64,000 bases of DNA from the IMG/VR virus record IMGVR_UViG_2645728113_000006; one strand, written 5' to 3'. Position 1 is the stretch's first letter, and each line of letters opens with the position of its first letter. The notes below the pieces were generated by a model. That model ran no database searches and was not told the origin of the DNA. It saw only the letters and a list, made by a program, of their open reading frames with translations. The DNA is from an uncultured virus (IMG/VR IMGVR_UViG_2645728113_000006). Lineage: Duplodnaviria; Heunggongvirae; Uroviricota; Caudoviricetes. A program made the position numbers and the translations under genes. Of the stretch, positions 47,516 to 57,700 are shown piece by piece.

Positions 47516-47588
47516 GTTGTATGCCTGAACAGTATCGACTCGTCACGACAATCTACTTATCCTAGATTATTTGATACGAGATCAAATC

Positions 47589-48395
47589 ATGTTGCCCGAG
47601 CCAAGGCTGGCGCTAAACGAACTACTCAAGGAGCGAACCCTGCTCTGGCATAAGATTGCTGAAAATCATTATGTTGACGAGTTTGAGGTTCGGCGACTTT
47701 TTAATAAGCTTGATCGGCTGATAACAGATCCCGGTGCCGAGTTCAGTATTGCACCAGCCGCTTTGCATGAGCAGGCATATCTTTACGCTTACCAAATGAA
47801 AACCTCTAACGCCCTGCGGTTGTTTGAAGATGCTCGCCGTGCGGGACTTGATGGGCTTGCCGTATCAATTTCTACGGCCCATGCTTTATATATTTGTGGC
47901 GAGGTCGAAATGTCCAGGGAAGAGATATTGCGTACTGACTATTCTGATGCGAATAACAGGGGGCTGTCAGGGCTGGCTGATACCTGCGTTCATACTGGCT
48001 TGCTGAAAATGGCCAGGGATCTTTACATTCGGTCTGGAAAACAGGGTGGCGAAGTAAGCACTCAAGTTTTGCGTGCGGCCGAAATAATGGACCAGATTGG
48101 CGCGACGGATGAACAAGTAATGCGCAGGATCGCGACGGCTGCAAAAATTATCAAGTCTATGTCTGCGCATCCGTTCATTGCATTTGACCTGTTCGCTATG
48201 CAGGGCGAGGGAATCCTCTACCGCTTCGTAGTGAATGGGAGTACTGAAAGGCTGGTCGAGATTGATATGGCAATTGATGAGGCATTAATCGCTGATTTCG
48301 ATGAGGAAATTGATGACGTATTGTCGATTGGGATTGCGCCTTATGAGTTCGGTTCGAATATGTTAGCTGCGGATGGTTATTATGTCGGTGTGTAG
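47589..48395 (+). CDS. Helical-repeat (TPR-like) accessory protein
   Basis: Long ORF overlapping the HEPN-like gene; atypical codon usage. Confidence 0.7.
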   Translation: MLPEPRLALNELLKERTLLWHKIAENHYVDEFEVRRLFNKLDRLITDPGAEFSIAPAALHEQAYLYAYQMKTSNALRLFEDARRAGLDGLAVSISTAHALYICGEVEMSREEILRTDYSDANNRGLSGLADTCVHTGLLKMARDLYIRSGKQGGEVSTQVLRAAEIMDQIGATDEQVMRRIATAAKIIKSMSAHPFIAFDLFAMQGEGILYRFVVNGSTERLVEIDMAIDEALIADFDEEIDDVLSIGIAPYEFGSNMLAADGYYVGV

Positions 48396-48759
48396 TGATG
48401 ATCTGTTGTTGTTAGCCGAGTCACTTATTGGAAGTAAGGATGAGGTTGGCAATCGTGCGAGCATAAGCAGAAGTTATTATGCACTGTACCATGAGGCTAC
48501 AATAGCCGCATCGGCGCTCTCTTTAAAAAGCAATCCAGATGTAAAAACAAGTCACGATAAATTAATTTCGCGCTTTACCGGTGCGACTAAAGGTCTTGCC
48601 TCAATTGGGCGCGGCATTCTCAAGCAAAAGCGATTGCGTGCAATGGCTGACTATGAGATCGGCTCAGATCTCAATGCGTCCGAGGCGAGGTTCCATTTGG
48701 CTACAAGCAAGCGGCTTGTAAGTGACTTGCGAAGGATCGCTGATCCTGCGAACTCTTAA
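48382..48759 (+). CDS. HEPN-like domain protein
   Basis: RASISRSYYALYH...SH..LI...R.MADY. Confidence 0.75.
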   Translation: MSVCSDDLLLLAESLIGSKDEVGNRASISRSYYALYHEATIAASALSLKSNPDVKTSHDKLISRFTGATKGLASIGRGILKQKRLRAMADYEIGSDLNASEARFHLATSKRLVSDLRRIADPANS

Positions 48760-49018
48760 GATCTTTGCTGGATCAGGTCTTGAACAGAGTTTTCCTGTTA
48801 TCCGCCACCCTGCTACAGTCCCGCCAAACCAAAGAGGGAACGACATGCGGATTTTTGCTGTGATGTGCGAGGACCATTGATGTGATGCTGTGTTAGAGCG
48901 CAAGAGACTTTGGCAGTTTTATATGGAAGAGCGAGAAATCGCGAGTAGCTCCTATTGATTGCTGGCGCTGATCATGGCCGAATGATAGCTTTCAACCGTA
49001 TTAATTTTTTTCCACGGA

Positions 49019-49894
49019 GTGGATGTGCCAGCCCTTATTCCCCAATTGGTCAATGCTGCACTCGATCCTCATACATCGGTTGCCAGCTTGCTAAGGCATG
49101 CGCTAGTAGCGGCAAATAGGCTTAGTCTCGTTGACCTGGCCGATTGGATGAGTTCGGAACTCAATGGCTACAAAACCGCTTCACTGCCGGAGTATAGAAA
49201 GCTCCGTGGCACTCTCATTTGTGAGCACGAATTTGGGGGGTGGATGCCTTTAGAGGTCACGCATGCGGCAACCCTTAATATGGTGTCTCAGCGACCGTTC
49301 TATCAGTCCATCCCGGAATTAGAGCGATTAACTAGCAGCGGCGGGCCTTTCGTCGTTTTTTTTCCTCCAAAGAATGAAGTTTACTTACGCTCATTAATGA
49401 GGCCACCGACTAGGCCGGCAGTGGAAATACAGGCGAGCCAGATATTTGGCCTAATAGAGCTAGTTCGTAGCAGAATATTACAGTGGGCACTAGACCTTGA
49501 GTCCAAAGGGGTTATGGGTGAAGGTATGTCGTTTACATTGCAGGAGCGTCAGATCGTGGCTGCACAGCACTACCATTTTGGCGATGTTACTGGATCTCAA
49601 ATTCAAATTGGCTCGAGTGGGTCGAATCAGTCCATCGCACCCGGTGACAGCACGGGAGCAATGAATGCGTTAATCAACCTGCTTCGTGATGTTCTAGCTC
49701 GGAACGAGATTGATGGCGATGTGGCTGCCGAGTTGGTTGCCGAGCTCAAGACTCTGGAAGCTCAAGCCGAATCACCACGGCCTAAGGCATCAATTATCAG
49801 AGAAACCGCGCTGAGTATTCAGAGGGTCTTAGAGGGGGTTGCCGGTAACGTATTAGCGACCGCCGCTCCATTGATTTATTCGCTGGTGAGTTGA
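49019..49894 (+). CDS. AbiTii-like domain protein
   Basis: LLRHALVAA.RL....W...ELNGY...LPEYRKLRG. Confidence 0.8.
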   Translation: MDVPALIPQLVNAALDPHTSVASLLRHALVAANRLSLVDLADWMSSELNGYKTASLPEYRKLRGTLICEHEFGGWMPLEVTHAATLNMVSQRPFYQSIPELERLTSSGGPFVVFFPPKNEVYLRSLMRPPTRPAVEIQASQIFGLIELVRSRILQWALDLESKGVMGEGMSFTLQERQIVAAQHYHFGDVTGSQIQIGSSGSNQSIAPGDSTGAMNALINLLRDVLARNEIDGDVAAELVAELKTLEAQAESPRPKASIIRETALSIQRVLEGVAGNVLATAAPLIYSLVS

Positions 49895-49926
49895 TGCCAG
49901 CCCAGTCCCGCGCTGGGCTTTTTGCT

Positions 49927-50475
49927 TTAAACATTCCGAGGAGTTCGCCGATCCTTGAGTACGGAATCTAGGTCTCGTGCTAATTGGTCGGCGAGAATTC
50001 CGAGGATTGTCCATATGGCCATTGAGCGGGTGCGGATGACAATCGCATGCGTCTCCTCATCCTCTCCTTCGGGCTCATAAGGCGTGAAATTCTTCTGATA
50101 CACGGCGAACCCGATCGGCTCGCTGATTTTGAAGAATTTTGCTAGCAGAGGCTGCAAGCGCACTGGTTCGTTTCGATGTCCTACCGCGTTGCGAAGGTTA
50201 TTTAGCGCCTTAATCGAATCCCATAGTTCAGGCTCCATAGCTGAACCCACGATTGCCCTGCAGAGCTCCGTAGCAGTGCCGAAAGTAAAAATATCGTTTC
50301 GGCTATAAGGGCGAGAGTATTGGGCTACCCCAGCGGCTATCAGATCATGCAATTGCTCCTCGACAATCATGTGGCCGCGTAGCACTGCCGACAGCAGTTC
50401 ACTGTCCCGTTCGAAGGTGCGATGAAACTGCGCGGTCTTCTTCTCGATGTCCTTTGCGAAAAGTTCTCTTTTCAT
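49927..50475 (-). CDS. HEPN/MtlR-like helical protein
   Basis: VLRGHMIVE and LNNLRNAVGH (Rx4H). Confidence 0.65.
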   Translation of the reverse strand: MKRELFAKDIEKKTAQFHRTFERDSELLSAVLRGHMIVEEQLHDLIAAGVAQYSRPYSRNDIFTFGTATELCRAIVGSAMEPELWDSIKALNNLRNAVGHRNEPVRLQPLLAKFFKISEPIGFAVYQKNFTPYEPEGEDEETHAIVIRTRSMAIWTILGILADQLARDLDSVLKDRRTPRNV

Positions 50476-50568: not shown

Positions 50569-51024
50569 TCATTGCGGCATCGGTGGCCAGCTTTTGGACT
50601 CTTCGACTACGTTGGCGATTACTTCTTCGATGGTTGTCTTTTCGCCGCGAGCCTCGGCATGAAAAAGATCAATTATTGCGTTGAGCATTATTTCCTGTGT
50701 GACGCCATGCTTCGCTGCTTCGCCTTGTAGATTTTCGATGGTGCTTTTCGGTAACGCTAGGACTAGGTCTTTCTTGCCCTCAGCGACTAGCGCCATTTCT
50801 AAAACCTCGGGCTGGTCATCAACATCCTGCAGTTTTTCCACTTCACAACCGAGTGCTTTAGAGAGCTTGACTAATGCGGTCATGCGAGGAACCGAGGTGC
50901 CCATCTCATACCGTCCTATTTGAGGAACGCTTAAGCCACTCGCCTTCGCAAGATCGCGCTGTGTCATTCCCGCGTCTGCGCGGAGGCGGACGAGCCGGGA
51001 AGGGAAGCCTTTCGGGTGGTACAT
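50569..51024 (-). CDS. XRE-family HTH regulator
   Basis: LVRLRADAGMTQRDLAKASGLSVPQIGRYE; alternative start at 51054. Confidence 0.88.
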   Translation of the reverse strand: MYHPKGFPSRLVRLRADAGMTQRDLAKASGLSVPQIGRYEMGTSVPRMTALVKLSKALGCEVEKLQDVDDQPEVLEMALVAEGKKDLVLALPKSTIENLQGEAAKHGVTQEIMLNAIIDLFHAEARGEKTTIEEVIANVVEESKSWPPMPQ

Positions 51025-51158
51025 GCTGATTCCATACTGTGGTGTGGAAAACATGATGTTCGCGAAACATTGTCAGCGCAAGAAGATGATGGCAAATGAT
51101 GTTGACTAGACGTCGTAAATGATGCGTAATGATGTCTAGTGATTGTTAAGGAGGTTTT

Positions 51159-51326
51159 ATGAGGTCGGAAAAATCGCGATACCCGCTCAGCTTGGAGGCA
51201 TCTGTGAAAGTGCAGGCAGAAGGTGAAGCAAAGAAAAATCGACGCAGTTTGAATGCCGAACTCGGACTGTTAATCGAGGAGGGACTGAAATGGAGGGAGC
51301 AAACGAGCAAGCAGGCAGTAGCCTAA
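51159..51326 (+). CDS. Arc-family ribbon-helix-helix repressor, 55 aa (not in ORF track)
   Basis: AAGGAGG RBS; ...EAKKNRRSLNAELGLLIEEGL. Confidence 0.82.
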   Translation: MRSEKSRYPLSLEASVKVQAEGEAKKNRRSLNAELGLLIEEGLKWREQTSKQAVA

Positions 51327-51394: not shown

Positions 51395-52258
51395 ATGAGC
51401 GATATTAGCACAACCGTTTCGAATGTCATCCCGTTCAATTTCGGCAAGCAGCAGGTGCGTACGCTGCTGATTGATGATCAGCCGTGGTTCGTGGCTAACG
51501 ATGTTTCTGCTGCGCTTCAGTACAGCGAAGCGTCGGCGATGACTCGGCATTTGGACGACGATGAAAAGGGTCTGTCGATTGTGCAGACCCTTGGCGGCGA
51601 TCAGGAAATGCTGGTCATCAACGAGTCAGGCCTTTACTCGGCAATCCTGCGCAGCCGTAAGGCTGAAGCCAAACGCTTTAAGAAGTGGGTCACCGCTGAA
51701 GTCCTCCCGGCGATTCGCAAGCAGGGCAGCTACCAAGATTCCAGCAATAAAATGAAGGCGCTGATGGATGATCTGGTCGACATGACCGAGACGAATGCAC
51801 TGAAGGGCTTGGCGCGCCACAAGGTGGCACATCTTCCAGCCTCCATTCAGCGCAGTGCTTCCGCTCGTATTTATTCGGCAGTGCACACACGTTTCAACGT
51901 GCCGCGTCTTGAGCTTATCCCTGCAAGCCAGTTCGAGTCGGCGTGCAACTTCATCGCGGCCTACGCCGTTCTTGAGGGAGAGTTCATTCCGAAGGGGAAC
52001 GGCAAGCCATTCGACATCCCGGAGAAGCTTGGCCAGTGTGAGCGCTATCTCGTCAGCGCAGATCCTCACGGCAATCGGCAGGTCACGCCGGTGCCAATGG
52101 GGGCGTTCGTCCTGACTCGGCAGCAGTTCATGCAGTCAATGCTTGTTGATCGAGATATGCCAGTTTCCACAGCGGAGATGTTCGAGTTTGTAGCGCTGGC
52201 GACCGAAAACCTGCGCTACCGCTTTCTGTTCCAGGCTGCCCGGAGGGACGCAGCATGA
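51395..52258 (+). CDS. BRO-N antirepressor
   Basis: PWFVANDV; INESGLYSAILRSRKAEAKRFKKWVT.EVLP.IRK. Confidence 0.9.
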   Translation: MSDISTTVSNVIPFNFGKQQVRTLLIDDQPWFVANDVSAALQYSEASAMTRHLDDDEKGLSIVQTLGGDQEMLVINESGLYSAILRSRKAEAKRFKKWVTAEVLPAIRKQGSYQDSSNKMKALMDDLVDMTETNALKGLARHKVAHLPASIQRSASARIYSAVHTRFNVPRLELIPASQFESACNFIAAYAVLEGEFIPKGNGKPFDIPEKLGQCERYLVSADPHGNRQVTPVPMGAFVLTRQQFMQSMLVDRDMPVSTAEMFEFVALATENLRYRFLFQAARRDAA

Positions 52259-52830
52259 GCATGGAACTTGTCACACTAAAAATTACCGGCACGTCACCGC
52301 TGATGATGCACAGCGACAAGCTGGCCAACCCTTTGAATCCAGCAACAAAGGCTCACAAGGAATTGACCGGTAAGCGCAAGAAGACGGACGACGATCATCT
52401 TGCCATTGCTCGCTCTGAGTTTATCGCTGGTGCCTACCACGATGAAAAGCTTGGCTTTTTTGTGCCAGGTGCGAATTTCGATGCGACGTTCTTGGCTGGC
52501 GCGAAGCTCCAAAAGCTGGGCACTCAATGGAAGCGCGGAGCGGTTGTGATGACTGACAAGGCGAAGCTTGAGTTCTCTGGCCCGACAACGCCTGACTCTC
52601 TTTGGGAGGATCAGCGGTTCGTTGACTGCCGCGGAGTAAAAGTTGGTCAAGCCAAGATCATGCGATACCGCCCGATCTTTCTTGAGTGGGCCGTGGAGCT
52701 GGAAGTTGCAATCAACGCTGACGTACTCAACATCGAGGAAGCAAAAAAAGCGATCACTGATTCTGGCCTGTTGATTGGGGTCTGTGAATACAGACCGCGC
52801 TTCGGTCGCTTCGAGGTGGAATATGTCTGA
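52255..52830 (+). CDS. Stand-alone RAMP/Cas7-like protein (candidate guide-RNA effector)
   Basis: N-terminal strand ITGTSPLMMH, VPGANF, RYRP.F.EW, C-terminal Gly loop GLLIGVCEYRPRFGRFEV; fold inferred by eye. Confidence 0.7.
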   Translation: MSMELVTLKITGTSPLMMHSDKLANPLNPATKAHKELTGKRKKTDDDHLAIARSEFIAGAYHDEKLGFFVPGANFDATFLAGAKLQKLGTQWKRGAVVMTDKAKLEFSGPTTPDSLWEDQRFVDCRGVKVGQAKIMRYRPIFLEWAVELEVAINADVLNIEEAKKAITDSGLLIGVCEYRPRFGRFEVEYV

Positions 52831-53281
52831 GTTGACAAAGCACCCGAGCTATAAGCAAGCCGTTGAAGACTTCCTCAAGGAGTTCAAATACGGTGATTTG
52901 GTCGGACATGAATGGCTGGAGGCTCGTTTCGGCATGCCGTCAATGACCGATTCGAAGTCGCTGACTGTTGAGAAGTTTCGTGAGCGTCAGTTCGAGTGGC
53001 TGGCGAACGTCGAGGCATTCAAGTCGGACTTGCTCAAACATCATCAAGTCTGCCTTCAGTCAGTGCGCGGGCGTGGTTATCGATGGGTGCCGCCTCATGA
53101 GCAGACAGAAGTTGCGGTAACTGAGTTGGGCCGGAATGTCAGGAAGGCGTTTCGCGGGAGTGGAGAAAAGCTGAGAAATTTGAGGATTACGGAGCTTACC
53201 GATGATCAGCGACGGGCAAACCTTGACGCTGTTGCAAAGTTTTCCGCGCTCCAGGGCATGACTCGAAAGGCTCTTGGTTAA
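52823..53281 (+). CDS. Winged-helix-like accessory protein coupled to the RAMP-like gene
   Basis: 8 bp overlap; LQSVRGRGYRW wing-like motif; stop lies 3 bp before the array. Confidence 0.7.
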   Translation: MSELTKHPSYKQAVEDFLKEFKYGDLVGHEWLEARFGMPSMTDSKSLTVEKFRERQFEWLANVEAFKSDLLKHHQVCLQSVRGRGYRWVPPHEQTEVAVTELGRNVRKAFRGSGEKLRNLRITELTDDQRRANLDAVAKFSALQGMTRKALG

Positions 53282-53284
53282 TAG

Positions 53285-53556
53285 CAGCGTAATATCCTTT
53301 CTATGAGAGGGCATTGCGGTGCGAATGCATCATGTGGCGTGGCGAGACAAGGTTGGGCGAGGTCTGGTTAGGTCGGGCATGTCTAGGTGAGGGCTGACAA
53401 CAGCGTAATGCCGATTGGAATCAGTCGGCATTGCGGTGGCAGAAGCCGCTGGCAGGTTCTGGTCCGGCAAGTCGCGGCTAGGCCCGGCGGGGTGTGATTT
53501 GATTTGGTATGGGCTGATAACAGCGTAATGTCTCTTCTTGGAGGAGGCATTGCAGT
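53285..53556 (+). ncRNA. Candidate guide-RNA array: three structured repeats separated by two GGY-NN pentamer tracts
   Basis: CAGCGTAAT-hairpin-GCATTGC at 53285, 53401, 53521; 5 nt periodic tracts at 53336-53390 and 53451-53510. Confidence 0.8.
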
Positions 53557-53578: not shown

Positions 53579-53599
53579 GGCCCGCATTGCGGGCTTTCG
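53579..53599 (+). terminator. Terminator closing the array
   Basis: GGCCCGC-ATT-GCGGGCT followed by a short T run. Confidence 0.6.
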
Positions 53600-53652
53600 T
53601 GTTGCTCTCTGCCTGGTGATAAAGTCTCGCCATATCTCAACGAGGGAGCGAC

Positions 53653-54101: not shown

Positions 54102-54701
54102 ATGTCAGCACTCGCAATTAATTATCAGCCGATGACTACCATCTTGCTTTATGGGCAGCTTAGGCAATTTGGAAGATCTTTCAGGTTGTCAGTTAAGTCC
54201 CCAGCCGAGGCTATCAAGGCGCTATGCGTACAGATCCCTGGCTTCGAGCGGTTCCTGTCGAACGCCAAGTCTCGCGGCATTGAGTTTGCCGTGTTTCGAG
54301 GGTCAAAAAATCTTGCAGAAAAAGAATTAGGATTTGGCGGTTCCGGAGAAATCCGTATAGCGCCTGTAATTACGGGCCGAAAGCGCGCAGGCCTGATGCA
54401 GACCATTTTGGGCGCCATATTGATTGTGGTAGGTTTTTTTGCTTTCGGGTCGACAACAACTACAGGCGCAGCGCTCATAGCGGGCGGTATCGGTAGTGCT
54501 GCTGGGGGCGTAATCCAAATGCTTAGTCCGCAGGCGGCAGGCCTCAAGATGAGCGCTGCGCCCGAAAACCAGCCTGGATATGCATTTGGCTCGGCGCAGA
54601 ACACAACTGCATCCGGCAACCCGGTCCCGCTCTGCTACGGCAAGCGCAGGGTCGGCGGGGCGATTATTAGCGCCGCGATATACGCCGAAGACCAGATGTA
54701 G
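54102..54701 (+). CDS. Tail assembly protein I
   Basis: SPAEAIKAL; YAFG..NT..GNPVPLCYG..GGAIISA. Confidence 0.9.
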   Translation: MSALAINYQPMTTILLYGQLRQFGRSFRLSVKSPAEAIKALCVQIPGFERFLSNAKSRGIEFAVFRGSKNLAEKELGFGGSGEIRIAPVITGRKRAGLMQTILGAILIVVGFFAFGSTTTTGAALIAGGIGSAAGGVIQMLSPQAAGLKMSAAPENQPGYAFGSAQNTTASGNPVPLCYGKRRVGGAIISAAIYAEDQM

Positions 54702-54760: not shown

Positions 54761-57700
54761 ATGGGCGCAGCACAAAAGATCGATATACACGGCGCCAAAG
54801 GCGGCGAAGGTAAACCAAAAACGCCGACTGAGGCCCCGGACAGTCTGCGCTCTGTTGCTATCGCAAAAATGCTCATTGCCGTGGGCGAGGGTGAGTTCGA
54901 GGGCACGCCAACTGCCAAAGACATCTATCTCGACAACACGCCCCTGCAAGACCCTCAAGGCAACATAAATTTCCCGAACGTGAAGTGGGAGTGGCGCACC
55001 GGTGCCGTGGACCAGAGCTATATCCAGGGCATCCCTTCGGTCGAGAACGAGACCACGATCAGTACCGAGCTGCGCAGCGGGACACCGTGGGTACGGGCCA
55101 TCAGCAATACCCAGCTTTCCGCTGTTCGCGTCCGTTTTGCGTGGCCTGTGCTTCAGTCCGTGGACTCTGGTGGCAACGTCAATGGCTACCGGATTGAATA
55201 CAAGGTTGAGCTGGCCACCGATGGCGGCGCCTATCAGCAGGTGCTGAGCGAGGCTGTCGACGGCAAGACCACCAGCCTGTACGAGCGCACGCGCCGTATC
55301 AATTTGCCGAAGGCCACTTCTGGTTGGCTGATGCGGATCACTCGCCTGACCGCGAATCAGAACAACAACAAAATCTCCGACACGATGCAAATTGCCGGCT
55401 TCACCGAGGTGATCGACGCGAAGATCCGCTACCCGAATACTGCGCTGCTTTACATCGAGTTCTCGGCCGAGCAGTTCCGCAGCATTCCTGCCGTTACCGT
55501 CGAGACCAAACTGAAGAAGATGCAGGTGCCGAGCAACTACGACCCAGTGTCGCGCACCTACTCGGGCGTCTGGGATGGCACGTTTAAGCAGGCTTGGACC
55601 GACAACGCGGTCTGGATGACCTACGACATCAGTACCGCCGACCGCTTCGGCCTGGGTCGCCGCATCAAGCCGTGGATGGTTGATATTTGGGAGTTGTATC
55701 GTATTTCCCAATACTGCGACCAGTTGGTGCCGGACGGGAAGGGGGGCCTGGAACCGCGCTTCATCTGCAACTTGAACCTGCAGAGCAAAGCCGATGCCTG
55801 GTCACTGCTGCGTGACATATCGGCGATCTACCGAGGCATGACCTACTGGGCCCAGGGCCAGGTCTTCACCCTGTCGGATATGCCGCGTGCCACTGACTTC
55901 GACTTCGCCTATACCAGGGCCAACGTCCTTGACGGTAAGTTCACCTACTCCAGCGCGTCGGAGCGTACCCGGTACACCCGGGCGCTGATCAGCTACGACA
56001 ACCCGCTGAACAACTACGACACCGATGTCACTGCTGTGACCGATGCAAAGCTCCAGCGGCGCTATGGTGACAATCCGCTGGAGATCAGCGCAATTGGTTG
56101 TACCCGCGAGTCCGAGGCCCAGCGCCGCGGCAAGTGGGCGCTGCTGACCAACTCCAAGGATCGGGCGGTTACCTTCAAGGTCGGCCTCGACGGTCGCATC
56201 CCGCTTCCTGGTTACGTGATCCCCATTGCTGACGAACTGCTTGCAGGTCGGCCGGTGGGTGGCCGTATCTCGGCGGTGAACGGAAAGGTCATCACCCTGG
56301 ACCGTGACACCCAGGCCAAGCCCGGCGACCGGTTGATCCTCAACTTGCCAGACGGCAAGTGCGAGGGGCGCACGGTGCAACTGGTCAGTGGCCGACAGGT
56401 CACCGTAACCCTGGCCTACTCCGTACCACCGGAGCGTGAACTAGTGTGGGCGCTGGACGCCGACGATCTGGCGATCCCGCTTTACCGGGTGGTCAGCGTG
56501 GCGCGGCCAGAGCCCGGCGTATTTGAAATCTCAGCCGTGCAGTACGACCCCAGCAAGTTCGATCACATCGACACCGGCGCCCGGTTGGAAGAGCGGCCTA
56601 TCAGCGTTGTACCGATCACCGTAGTTCCTGCCCCGACGAGCGTCGACATCACGTCGAACTACTCCGTGGACCAGGGCCTGGCAATCAGCACCATGAATAT
56701 CTCGTGGCCTGCTGTGGCTGGCGCAGTGGCTTATGACGTGGAGTGGCGCAAGGACAGCGGAAACTGGATCAAGCTGCAGCGCACCGGCTCTACCAGCGTT
56801 GACGTCACCGGCATTTACTCGGGCGCATATCTCGCCCGTGTTCGGTCGGTGAGCGCGTTCGAGATTTCGTCCATTTGGAAGAGCTCCAATCTGACCAACC
56901 TGGAAGGGAAGGTCGGCCTCCCGCCGGCCGTGGCGTTCCTGTCCACCACTAGCGAGCTGTTCGGCATTGGCATTCGCTGGGGTTTCCCGGCTGACGCCGA
57001 GGATACCCAGCGCACCGAGCTCTGGTATGGACAGGCTAATGATCTGTCGGTGGCGACCAAACTCGCAGACTTGGCGCACCCCCAAGCGAATTACAGCATG
57101 CAGGCCCTAAAGGCCGGCGCGCAGTTCTTCTTCTGGGCTCGCCTGGTCGACCGTACCGGTAACGTTGGCCCGTTCTATCCCGTCGGTAACGGCGTGATGG
57201 GGATGGCAAGTGCCGATGCGGCGCCGGTGCTGGATTTGATCGCCGGGCAGATTGGGCGTACGGAGCTGGGCAAGGACATCACGGACGAGATCGACAAGAT
57301 CCCAGGGCTGCAGGCGCAGATCGACGCGCTCGATGGGTTGTCCGCCTACGACCCGGAGTCGACCTACCTTGAGTTTGACCTAGTGGTGGTTGGTAAGCGG
57401 ATCTACCAGGCCACCGGCCCGGTACCCGTCGATACGCCACCACCGAATGCCAACTACTGGCAGGACGTGGGTCAGGCGGTGGTCACTGCCAATGGCCTTG
57501 CGCGTCAAGTTGAGATCAATACCACCAGCATCACCGAACTGGACGGGGTGGTCACGGCTCAGGCGTCAAGTCTTCAGGCGTTGCAATCGGCTTATCGGGA
57601 CGACACGGGGGAGGGGGATCTGGTTGATGCACTCCAGGGCTACAACGCCTCGGCGAGTTTCGCGCAGGAAGTGAAGACGCAGGCCACGAAGAACGCAGCC

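What the first reader, a model, noticed from the sequence alone, without database searches (positions are those of the whole stretch)
53451..53510. Guide tract 2 matches the opposite strand of tail assembly gene I (NTPGYAFGS)
Pentamers gttCT ggtCC ggcAA gtcGC ggcTA ggcCC ggcGG ggtGT gatTT, gapped and reverse-complemented, give AAn ACn CCn GGn TAn GCn TTn GGn AGn. The prophage's gene I at 54567-54593 reads AAC CAG CCT GGA TAT GCA TTT GGC TCG (NQPGYAFGS): 7/9 dinucleotides match, six of them consecutive, again in codon register. Alone this is weaker (14/18 bases; roughly 0.02 expected 7/9 hits by hand estimate). It gains weight from using the same nine-pentamer window as tract 1 and from hitting the neighbouring tail gene.
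Basis: partly seen in the sequence, partly recalled or inferred. Interest (0 to 1): 0.9.

Follow-up and report, generated by a model that had tools for sequence, protein, structure and literature searches.

The report
Phage guide RNA aimed at kin
This prophage carries a known RNA-guided gene-silencing system, and one of its guides exactly spells a tail gene of closely related rival phages, while the prophage's own copy of that gene has a rare variant that no longer fits the guide.

Summary
Observation confirmed and extended. Tract 2 is the second guide (vrRNA) of a type II VIPR cassette (Vipr 42% identical to SUSP1 Vipr) in a Pseudomonas prophage. The match to the prophage's own gene I (14/18 bases, 7/9 dinucleotides) is weak alone: 346 and 10 of 1000 shuffles reach it. 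It is a by-product of the real target. The nine-unit core matches gene I of related phages 18/18: 119 of 120 viral hits lie in gene I, and 69 of the 80 closest homologues are perfect, 75 with Thr. Only the 1-base skip works. The own Gln/TCG allele is rare, and all 7 guide-2 carriers found mismatch themselves. One sibling phage and this one target each other. Against: some phages without VIPR carry the allele too, and clustering of changes at the site is not significant (p=0.09). Expression and silencing are untested. VIPR is published; I found no tail-gene escape alleles in the preprint text read, but Fig. S15 and data S3 were unseen. This scan noted similar self-sparing guides in other genomes.

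The parts
53451..53510 (+). Tract 2: twelve GGYNN-type units, guide part of vrRNA2; units 2-10 (53456-53500) are the matching core
   Evidence: units 1, 11, 12 do not match the common target (unit 11 matches one base of two)
53511..53553 (+). 3' tail of vrRNA2: conserved start motif and hairpin
   Evidence: fold z = -4.69; same tail start after tracts in related loci
53336..53390 (+). Tract 1: eleven units, guide part of vrRNA1; core of nine spells gene J of kin phages
53391..53442 (+). 3' tail and hairpin of vrRNA1
   Evidence: fold z = -6.08
53276..53322 (+). Tail-like hairpin overlapping the vap1 stop, ahead of tract 1
   Evidence: repeat family D4; fold z = -4.54
52255..52830 (+). vipr (RAMP-type effector, 191 aa)
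   Evidence: E 1.3e-46 to PDB 36pp 'SUSP1 Vipr protein'; 42% identical to SUSP1 gene
52823..53281 (+). vap1-like accessory gene (152 aa)
   Evidence: 24% identical over 113 aa, E 7e-12, to the gene after vipr in SUSP1
54567..54593 (+). Own copy of the tract 2 site in gene I, mismatched at codon 157 (Gln for Thr) and codon 164 (Ser TCG for AGY): 14/18
54102..54701 (+). Tail assembly gene I
   Evidence: PF06805; phrog_32
55679..55705 (+). Own copy of the tract 1 site in gene J, mismatched at codons 309 (Ile for Lys) and 312 (Leu TTG for CTn): 16/18
54675..54701 (+). End of gene I: 17/18 match to the guide of sibling phage L245
51398..52258 (+). Antirepressor gene (Bro-N/Ant) overlapping the vipr start; Arc-like gene 51159-51326 and HTH repressor 50569-51054 (-) lie upstream
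53579..53600 (+). Terminator-like hairpin closing the cassette
   Evidence: 5 such sites found, 4.0 expected by chance, so position is the only support

Best explanation
Tract 2 is a VIPR guide directed at gene I of closely related lambdoid Pseudomonas phages. Vipr subunits bind the GGY triplets; the NN pairs base-pair with the coding strand of gene I, skipping every wobble base, so synonymous third-position changes cannot escape (mechanism published for SUSP1 and P. fulva VIPR; inferred here by homology). Binding would block transcription of the rival's tail operon (inferred). The carrier avoids silencing itself because its own site has two fully mismatched units, one by an amino-acid change and one by a switch between the two Ser codon families (sequence shown; protection inferred). 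The partial self match exists because target and self are homologues.
For: 119 of 120 exact viral hits lie in gene I homologues, with only the skipped bases varying. 38 of 400 genus genomes have an exact site, reversed control 0; the self allele is in 2 of 400. 69 of 80 closest homologues are 18/18. In a pool chosen without tract 2, 18 of 120 loci are hit at 18/18 with skip 1, none with skip 0, 2 or 3, and none by 300 shuffled guides. All 7 carrier rows of guide 2 (6 distinct records) have own sites at 14/18 or 12/18, in two gene I backgrounds about 70% identical. None of the 75 Thr-type relatives shows vipr or a tail motif; 66 had >=2.5 kb upstream. The same pattern holds for tract 1 and for four guides of related phages whose own gene was visible. 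Other VIPR phages aim separate guides at the same gene: three in L322, one in L245.
Against: No expression or silencing data; the runs laid were contigs only. Four of 8 IMG/VR records with the self allele have no vipr match (two complete), nor does G219; two VIPR phages with the allele (L245, L283) lack guide 2. Changes at conserved codons are not significantly concentrated in the site of gene I (2 of 8 in 9 of 132, p=0.094; J p=0.017). Over all 12 units the rivals score only 19/24. In the wider J-selected pool only 18 of 80 gene I sites are perfect, 29 score 15/18. How many mismatches VIPR tolerates is not given in the text I read; tract 1 matches self at 18/22, above the 80% at which the preprint calls a natural target.
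Confidence: 0.8

Rival explanations
1. Same target, different history: the Gln/TCN allele did not arise to escape the carrier's own guide. It is an escape allele that spread among targeted phages, or an older variant, and guides simply persist only in genomes they do not match.
For: The allele occurs in records with no vipr match (L345, L347, L350, L351, G219) and in VIPR phages without guide 2. It sits on 4 separate branches of a gene I tree built without the site with shared rare wobble bases, which fits a recombining patch. Gln with TCC also occurs in a distant gene I lineage (L187).
Against: It is not a true alternative to kin targeting, only to the order of events. 8 of the 10 allele carriers in the tree have vipr or vap1. 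L345 shares the flanks of the cassette and has other genes in its slot, which fits loss of the cassette.
Confidence: 0.45
2. The guide regulates the prophage's own tail operon through a deliberately weak match, for example to keep late genes off in the lysogen.
For: Both guides find their best site in the window in the two genes next to the cassette; tract 1 matches self at 18/22.
Against: The guides match rivals exactly and self imperfectly; 14/18 is reached by 44 sites in the host assembly; siblings with a 12/18 self site keep the same guide.
Confidence: 0.08
3. Relic: the guides were copied from the phage's own ancestral genes or from a past rival and no longer act.
For: No expression data. 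How vrRNA guides are acquired was not found in the text read.
Against: vipr and vap1 are intact; among guide-2 carriers the GGY positions vary while core NN are kept in all but one unit of one record; exact targets are common today.
Confidence: 0.08
4. Chance match of a GC-rich repeat to a neighbouring gene.
For: The self match alone is marginal.
Against: Exact 18/18 match to the homologous site in 69 of 80 relatives; 0 of 300 shuffles and other skip lengths give any exact hit.
Confidence: 0.01

Closest known systems
Type II VIPR of Escherichia phage SUSP1 and the Pseudomonas fulva prophage clade (bioRxiv 10.64898/2026.04.26.720920; structures in 10.64898/2026.04.26.720927; PDB 36pp)
   Same: vipr plus vap1 plus downstream array of about 110-nt GGYNN guides with a structured 3' tail; 1-base skip on the wobble position; targets on either strand; targets in other prophages.
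   Different: The preprint text reports P. fulva clade targets mainly in lysis-lysogeny regulators and other VIPR systems, and no self hit at >=80%. Here both guides hit tail genes of the carrier's own clade 1-2.3 kb from the array, and tract 1 scores 82% on self. No guide lies upstream of vipr. Fig. S15 and data S3 were not visible, so tail targets may be among theirs.
Self-sparing solo vrRNAs of SUSP1-family phages (bioRxiv 10.64898/2026.10.15.759431)
   Same: Guides score lower on their own genome than on rivals, read as avoidance of autoimmunity.
   Different: There the targets are vrRNA loci, vipr or satellites; here they are essential structural genes, and the carrier differs at amino-acid-determining positions, which that paper argues are hard to change.
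P22 immI region (mnt-arc-ant); recalled, not from a call
   Same: Repressor, Arc-like gene and antirepressor in a cassette within the late region.
   Different: vipr, vap1 and the array follow the antirepressor gene directly.

Membership tests
VIPR type II | Vipr (RAMP) protein | tested here: met
   E 1.3e-46 to PDB 36pp; 42% identity. Read from that alignment: SUSP1 H17, K33, R39, K82, R138, R179 kept; D177 to E, W178 to Y; E71, M72, K88 not kept.
VIPR type II | vap1 accessory gene after vipr | tested here: met
   E 7e-12, 24% over 113 aa to the SUSP1 neighbour
VIPR type II | Guides of 9-16 pentamers with GGY alternating with variable NN | tested here: met
   11 and 12 units, 8 exact GGY each; NN differ among 125 guides of related loci
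VIPR type II | Conserved structured 3' tail | tested here: met
   Hairpins with z -4.5 to -6.1; tail start conserved across loci. Pseudoknot not tested.
VIPR type II | 1-nt skip code with skip on the wobble base | tested here: met
   18 of 120 loci with skip 1, 0 with skips 0, 2, 3; skipped bases vary
VIPR type II | Targets in competing phages, no self hit at >=80% | tested here: inconclusive
   Tract 2: rivals 18/18, self 14/18 (met). Tract 1: self 16/18 core, 18/22 full, above that threshold.
VIPR type II | vrRNA expressed, bound by Vipr, silences target | not testable with these tools
   Only contigs available
P. fulva VIPR clade | >90% identity to P. fulva Vipr | not tested

The most novel reading that the evidence does not exclude
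The cassette and the recoded target sites 1-2.3 kb away form one linked self/non-self module, like a poison with its antidote. Sibling phages swap guides and matching escape patches in genes I and J by recombination, giving mutually hostile types among near-identical phages: this prophage's guide 1 hits L245 at 18/18, L245's guide hits this prophage at 17/18, and each spares itself. Placed behind an antirepressor, the cassette would wake resident kin prophages and then deny them tails.
Probability: 0.35. Interest if true: 0.75.

Novelty: new member of a known kind. Interest (0 to 1): 0.5.

Why it matters
The system is known, but this locus gives natural matched pairs (guide, perfect rival site, mismatched own site, and a sibling with the reverse arrangement). 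They make two open points directly testable: how many and which mismatches VIPR tolerates, and how a phage can aim an escape-resistant guide at a gene it also needs. It shows that escape at codon positions 1-2 is possible in a conserved structural gene, through one substitution and a Ser codon-family switch.

Tried and rejected
Pfam gave no family for Vipr; PHROGs only unnamed families. A co-resident target in the host: no exact site in G000 and no second gene I or J copy; the best 12-unit hit elsewhere (20/24, C34) was not followed up. Other GGY arrays: only the two in the window and one weaker run on C48. Promoter scan: 2 sites, chance 2.3. Expression: 24 runs listed, 4 laid, all contigs, the one RNA-labelled run probably DNA; no evidence either way. 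Local mutagenesis at the bound site (C-to-T on the displaced strand) was considered: the J site fits loosely, the gene I site does not, and rare wobble bases in the gene I site are not unusual (56 of 190 windows as high); rejected. Solo guides in the VIPR-less allele carriers: no tract or tail motif in the DNA held. Gene tree: 104 sequences; rows under 60% identity, partial or duplicate were left out; midpoint root, supports not examined, so the 4 origins are indicative only. Literature: three searches found four papers on VIPR and none on tail-gene escape alleles.

Full report
Setting. The finding lies in the tail region of a lambdoid prophage, between genes L/K and I/J. An inserted block holds an HTH repressor, an Arc-like gene, an antirepressor (51398-52258), two overlapping genes (52255-52830, 52823-53281) and two pentamer tracts with hairpin tails. 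I recalled the name VIPR and confirmed it: the first gene matches PDB 36pp 'SUSP1 Vipr protein' at E 1.3e-46 and the SUSP1 gene at 42%; the second matches the SUSP1 neighbour at E 7e-12. The genus is Pseudomonas by the title of a 99% identical locus (L321).

Papers. bioRxiv 10.64898/2026.04.26.720920: whole text read, supplement PDF searched by term; figures, Fig. S15 and data S3 not seen, and they bear on novelty. 10.64898/2026.04.26.720927: parts 1-2 of 6. 10.64898/2026.10.15.759431: parts 1-3 of 8 and passages. 10.64898/2026.10.21.760802: passages. They establish the GGY/NN code, the one-base skip on the wobble position, silencing from either strand, and targets in rival elements.

Observation. 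The nine quoted units are 53456-53500. Their best 1-skip site in the window is gene I codons 156-164, 14/18 bases and 7/9 dinucleotides. Alone this is marginal: 346 of 1000 shuffles reach 14 bases, 10 of 1000 reach 7 dinucleotides, 8 of 300 when any 9 of 12 units are allowed.

The real target. It occurs in 38 of 400 genus genomes, the reversed control in none, and not in G000. Of the 80 closest gene I homologues, 75 have ACn, 69 AGn, and 69 score 18/18; 5 score 16, 1 scores 17, 5 score 14 (the 80 are the best of 315, and one seed peptide was the own allele). In 120 loci chosen by tract 1 only, 18 are hit exactly with skip 1, none with skip 0, 2, 3, none by 300 shuffles. In that wider pool only 18 of 80 gene I sites are perfect: the guide fits the carrier's own gene I clade, not all relatives. 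Units 1, 11 and 12 do not fit the common target, so the full score is 19/24 for rivals and 15/24 for self; the last units near the tail look like scaffold (inference). The RNA would pair with the coding strand of gene I, while tract 1 would pair with the template strand of J.

Self versus non-self. The own allele differs at two whole units: Thr to Gln at codon 157 (ACn in 75 of 75 others) and Ser AGY to TCG at 164. It is found in 8 IMG/VR records and 2 of 400 genomes. All four vipr-bearing loci among the 80 have it, and none of the 75 others shows vipr (66 with enough upstream DNA). All guide-2 carriers found (7 rows, 6 distinct records) score 14/18 or 12/18 on their own gene, in two gene I backgrounds. 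Tract 1 behaves alike: 18/18 on 64 of 75 relatives, 16/18 on self. L245, with a 98% identical Vipr, lacks both guides, has an intact J site, and carries a guide to the end of gene I that scores 17/18 on this window and on 69 of 75 relatives but 13/18 on itself. Eleven of 125 guides from 68 related loci hit the I-J region of the pool.

Against a simple story. The allele also sits in records with no vipr match and in VIPR phages without guide 2. The two changes are 2 of 8 at conserved codons of gene I, p=0.094 for landing in the site (J: 0.017). The allele maps to 4 branches with shared rare wobble bases, suggesting a patch moved by recombination, not repeated mutation. These carriers are kin and not independent samples. 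The order of events is therefore open. Tract 1 matches self at 82%, so partial self-silencing is not excluded.

Mechanism. Shown: cassette anatomy, code, exact rival targets, mismatched self. Inferred from the preprints: RNP assembly, triplex binding, transcriptional block. Inferred by me: blocking at I and J cuts off the rival's tail and downstream late genes; co-expression with the antirepressor would time this to infection or induction. Since the carrier could supply similar tail proteins in trans, the benefit is not obvious and needs a test.

Verdict. A real feature, a new member of type II VIPR. The kin-directed tail-gene targets with linked escape alleles and a reciprocal sibling pair were not in the preprint text I read (searches), though self-sparing of guides is noted in the third preprint, and this scan's unchecked notes describe similar cases in other genomes. 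Interest 0.5.

Noticed in passing
window 53336-53390 and 55679-55711: Tract 1 matches the own gene J at 18/22 (82%), above the 80% at which the preprint saw no self hits; only two mismatches in the core.
   Followed up: partly
L245 4512-4570 and window 54675-54701: A sibling phage's single guide targets the end of gene I; the sibling has a changed C-terminus there while this prophage is a 17/18 target.
   Followed up: partly
L322 7027-7340: All three guides hit gene I of related phages, one overlapping the tract 2 site; its own gene I lies beyond the contig end.
   Followed up: partly
L354 2747-3491: A complete provirus with a 96% identical gene I has other genes in the slot of the cassette yet keeps mismatched alleles at two guide sites: possible scar of a lost VIPR.
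   Followed up: partly
L263 7084-7240: An unusually long tract of about 30 units with internal repeats, perhaps a guide expansion.
   Followed up: no
L438 2113-2172: Variant of guide 2 with one core unit changed so that it would fit Gly instead of Ser at the last codon; such a target exists (L409).
   Followed up: no
window 47571-50475: Moron block between K and the cassette with an AbiTii-domain gene (49019-49894) and unassigned genes, possibly anti-phage defence.
   Followed up: no
G000 C48 near 3694 (minus strand): A weaker GGY-periodic run elsewhere in the assembly, without a vipr match nearby in the genome search.
   Followed up: no
OQ594955.1 and MW862109.1: Cultured Pseudomonas phages LESphi2 (46%) and Medea1 (82%) encode Vipr homologues annotated as hypothetical.
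   Followed up: no
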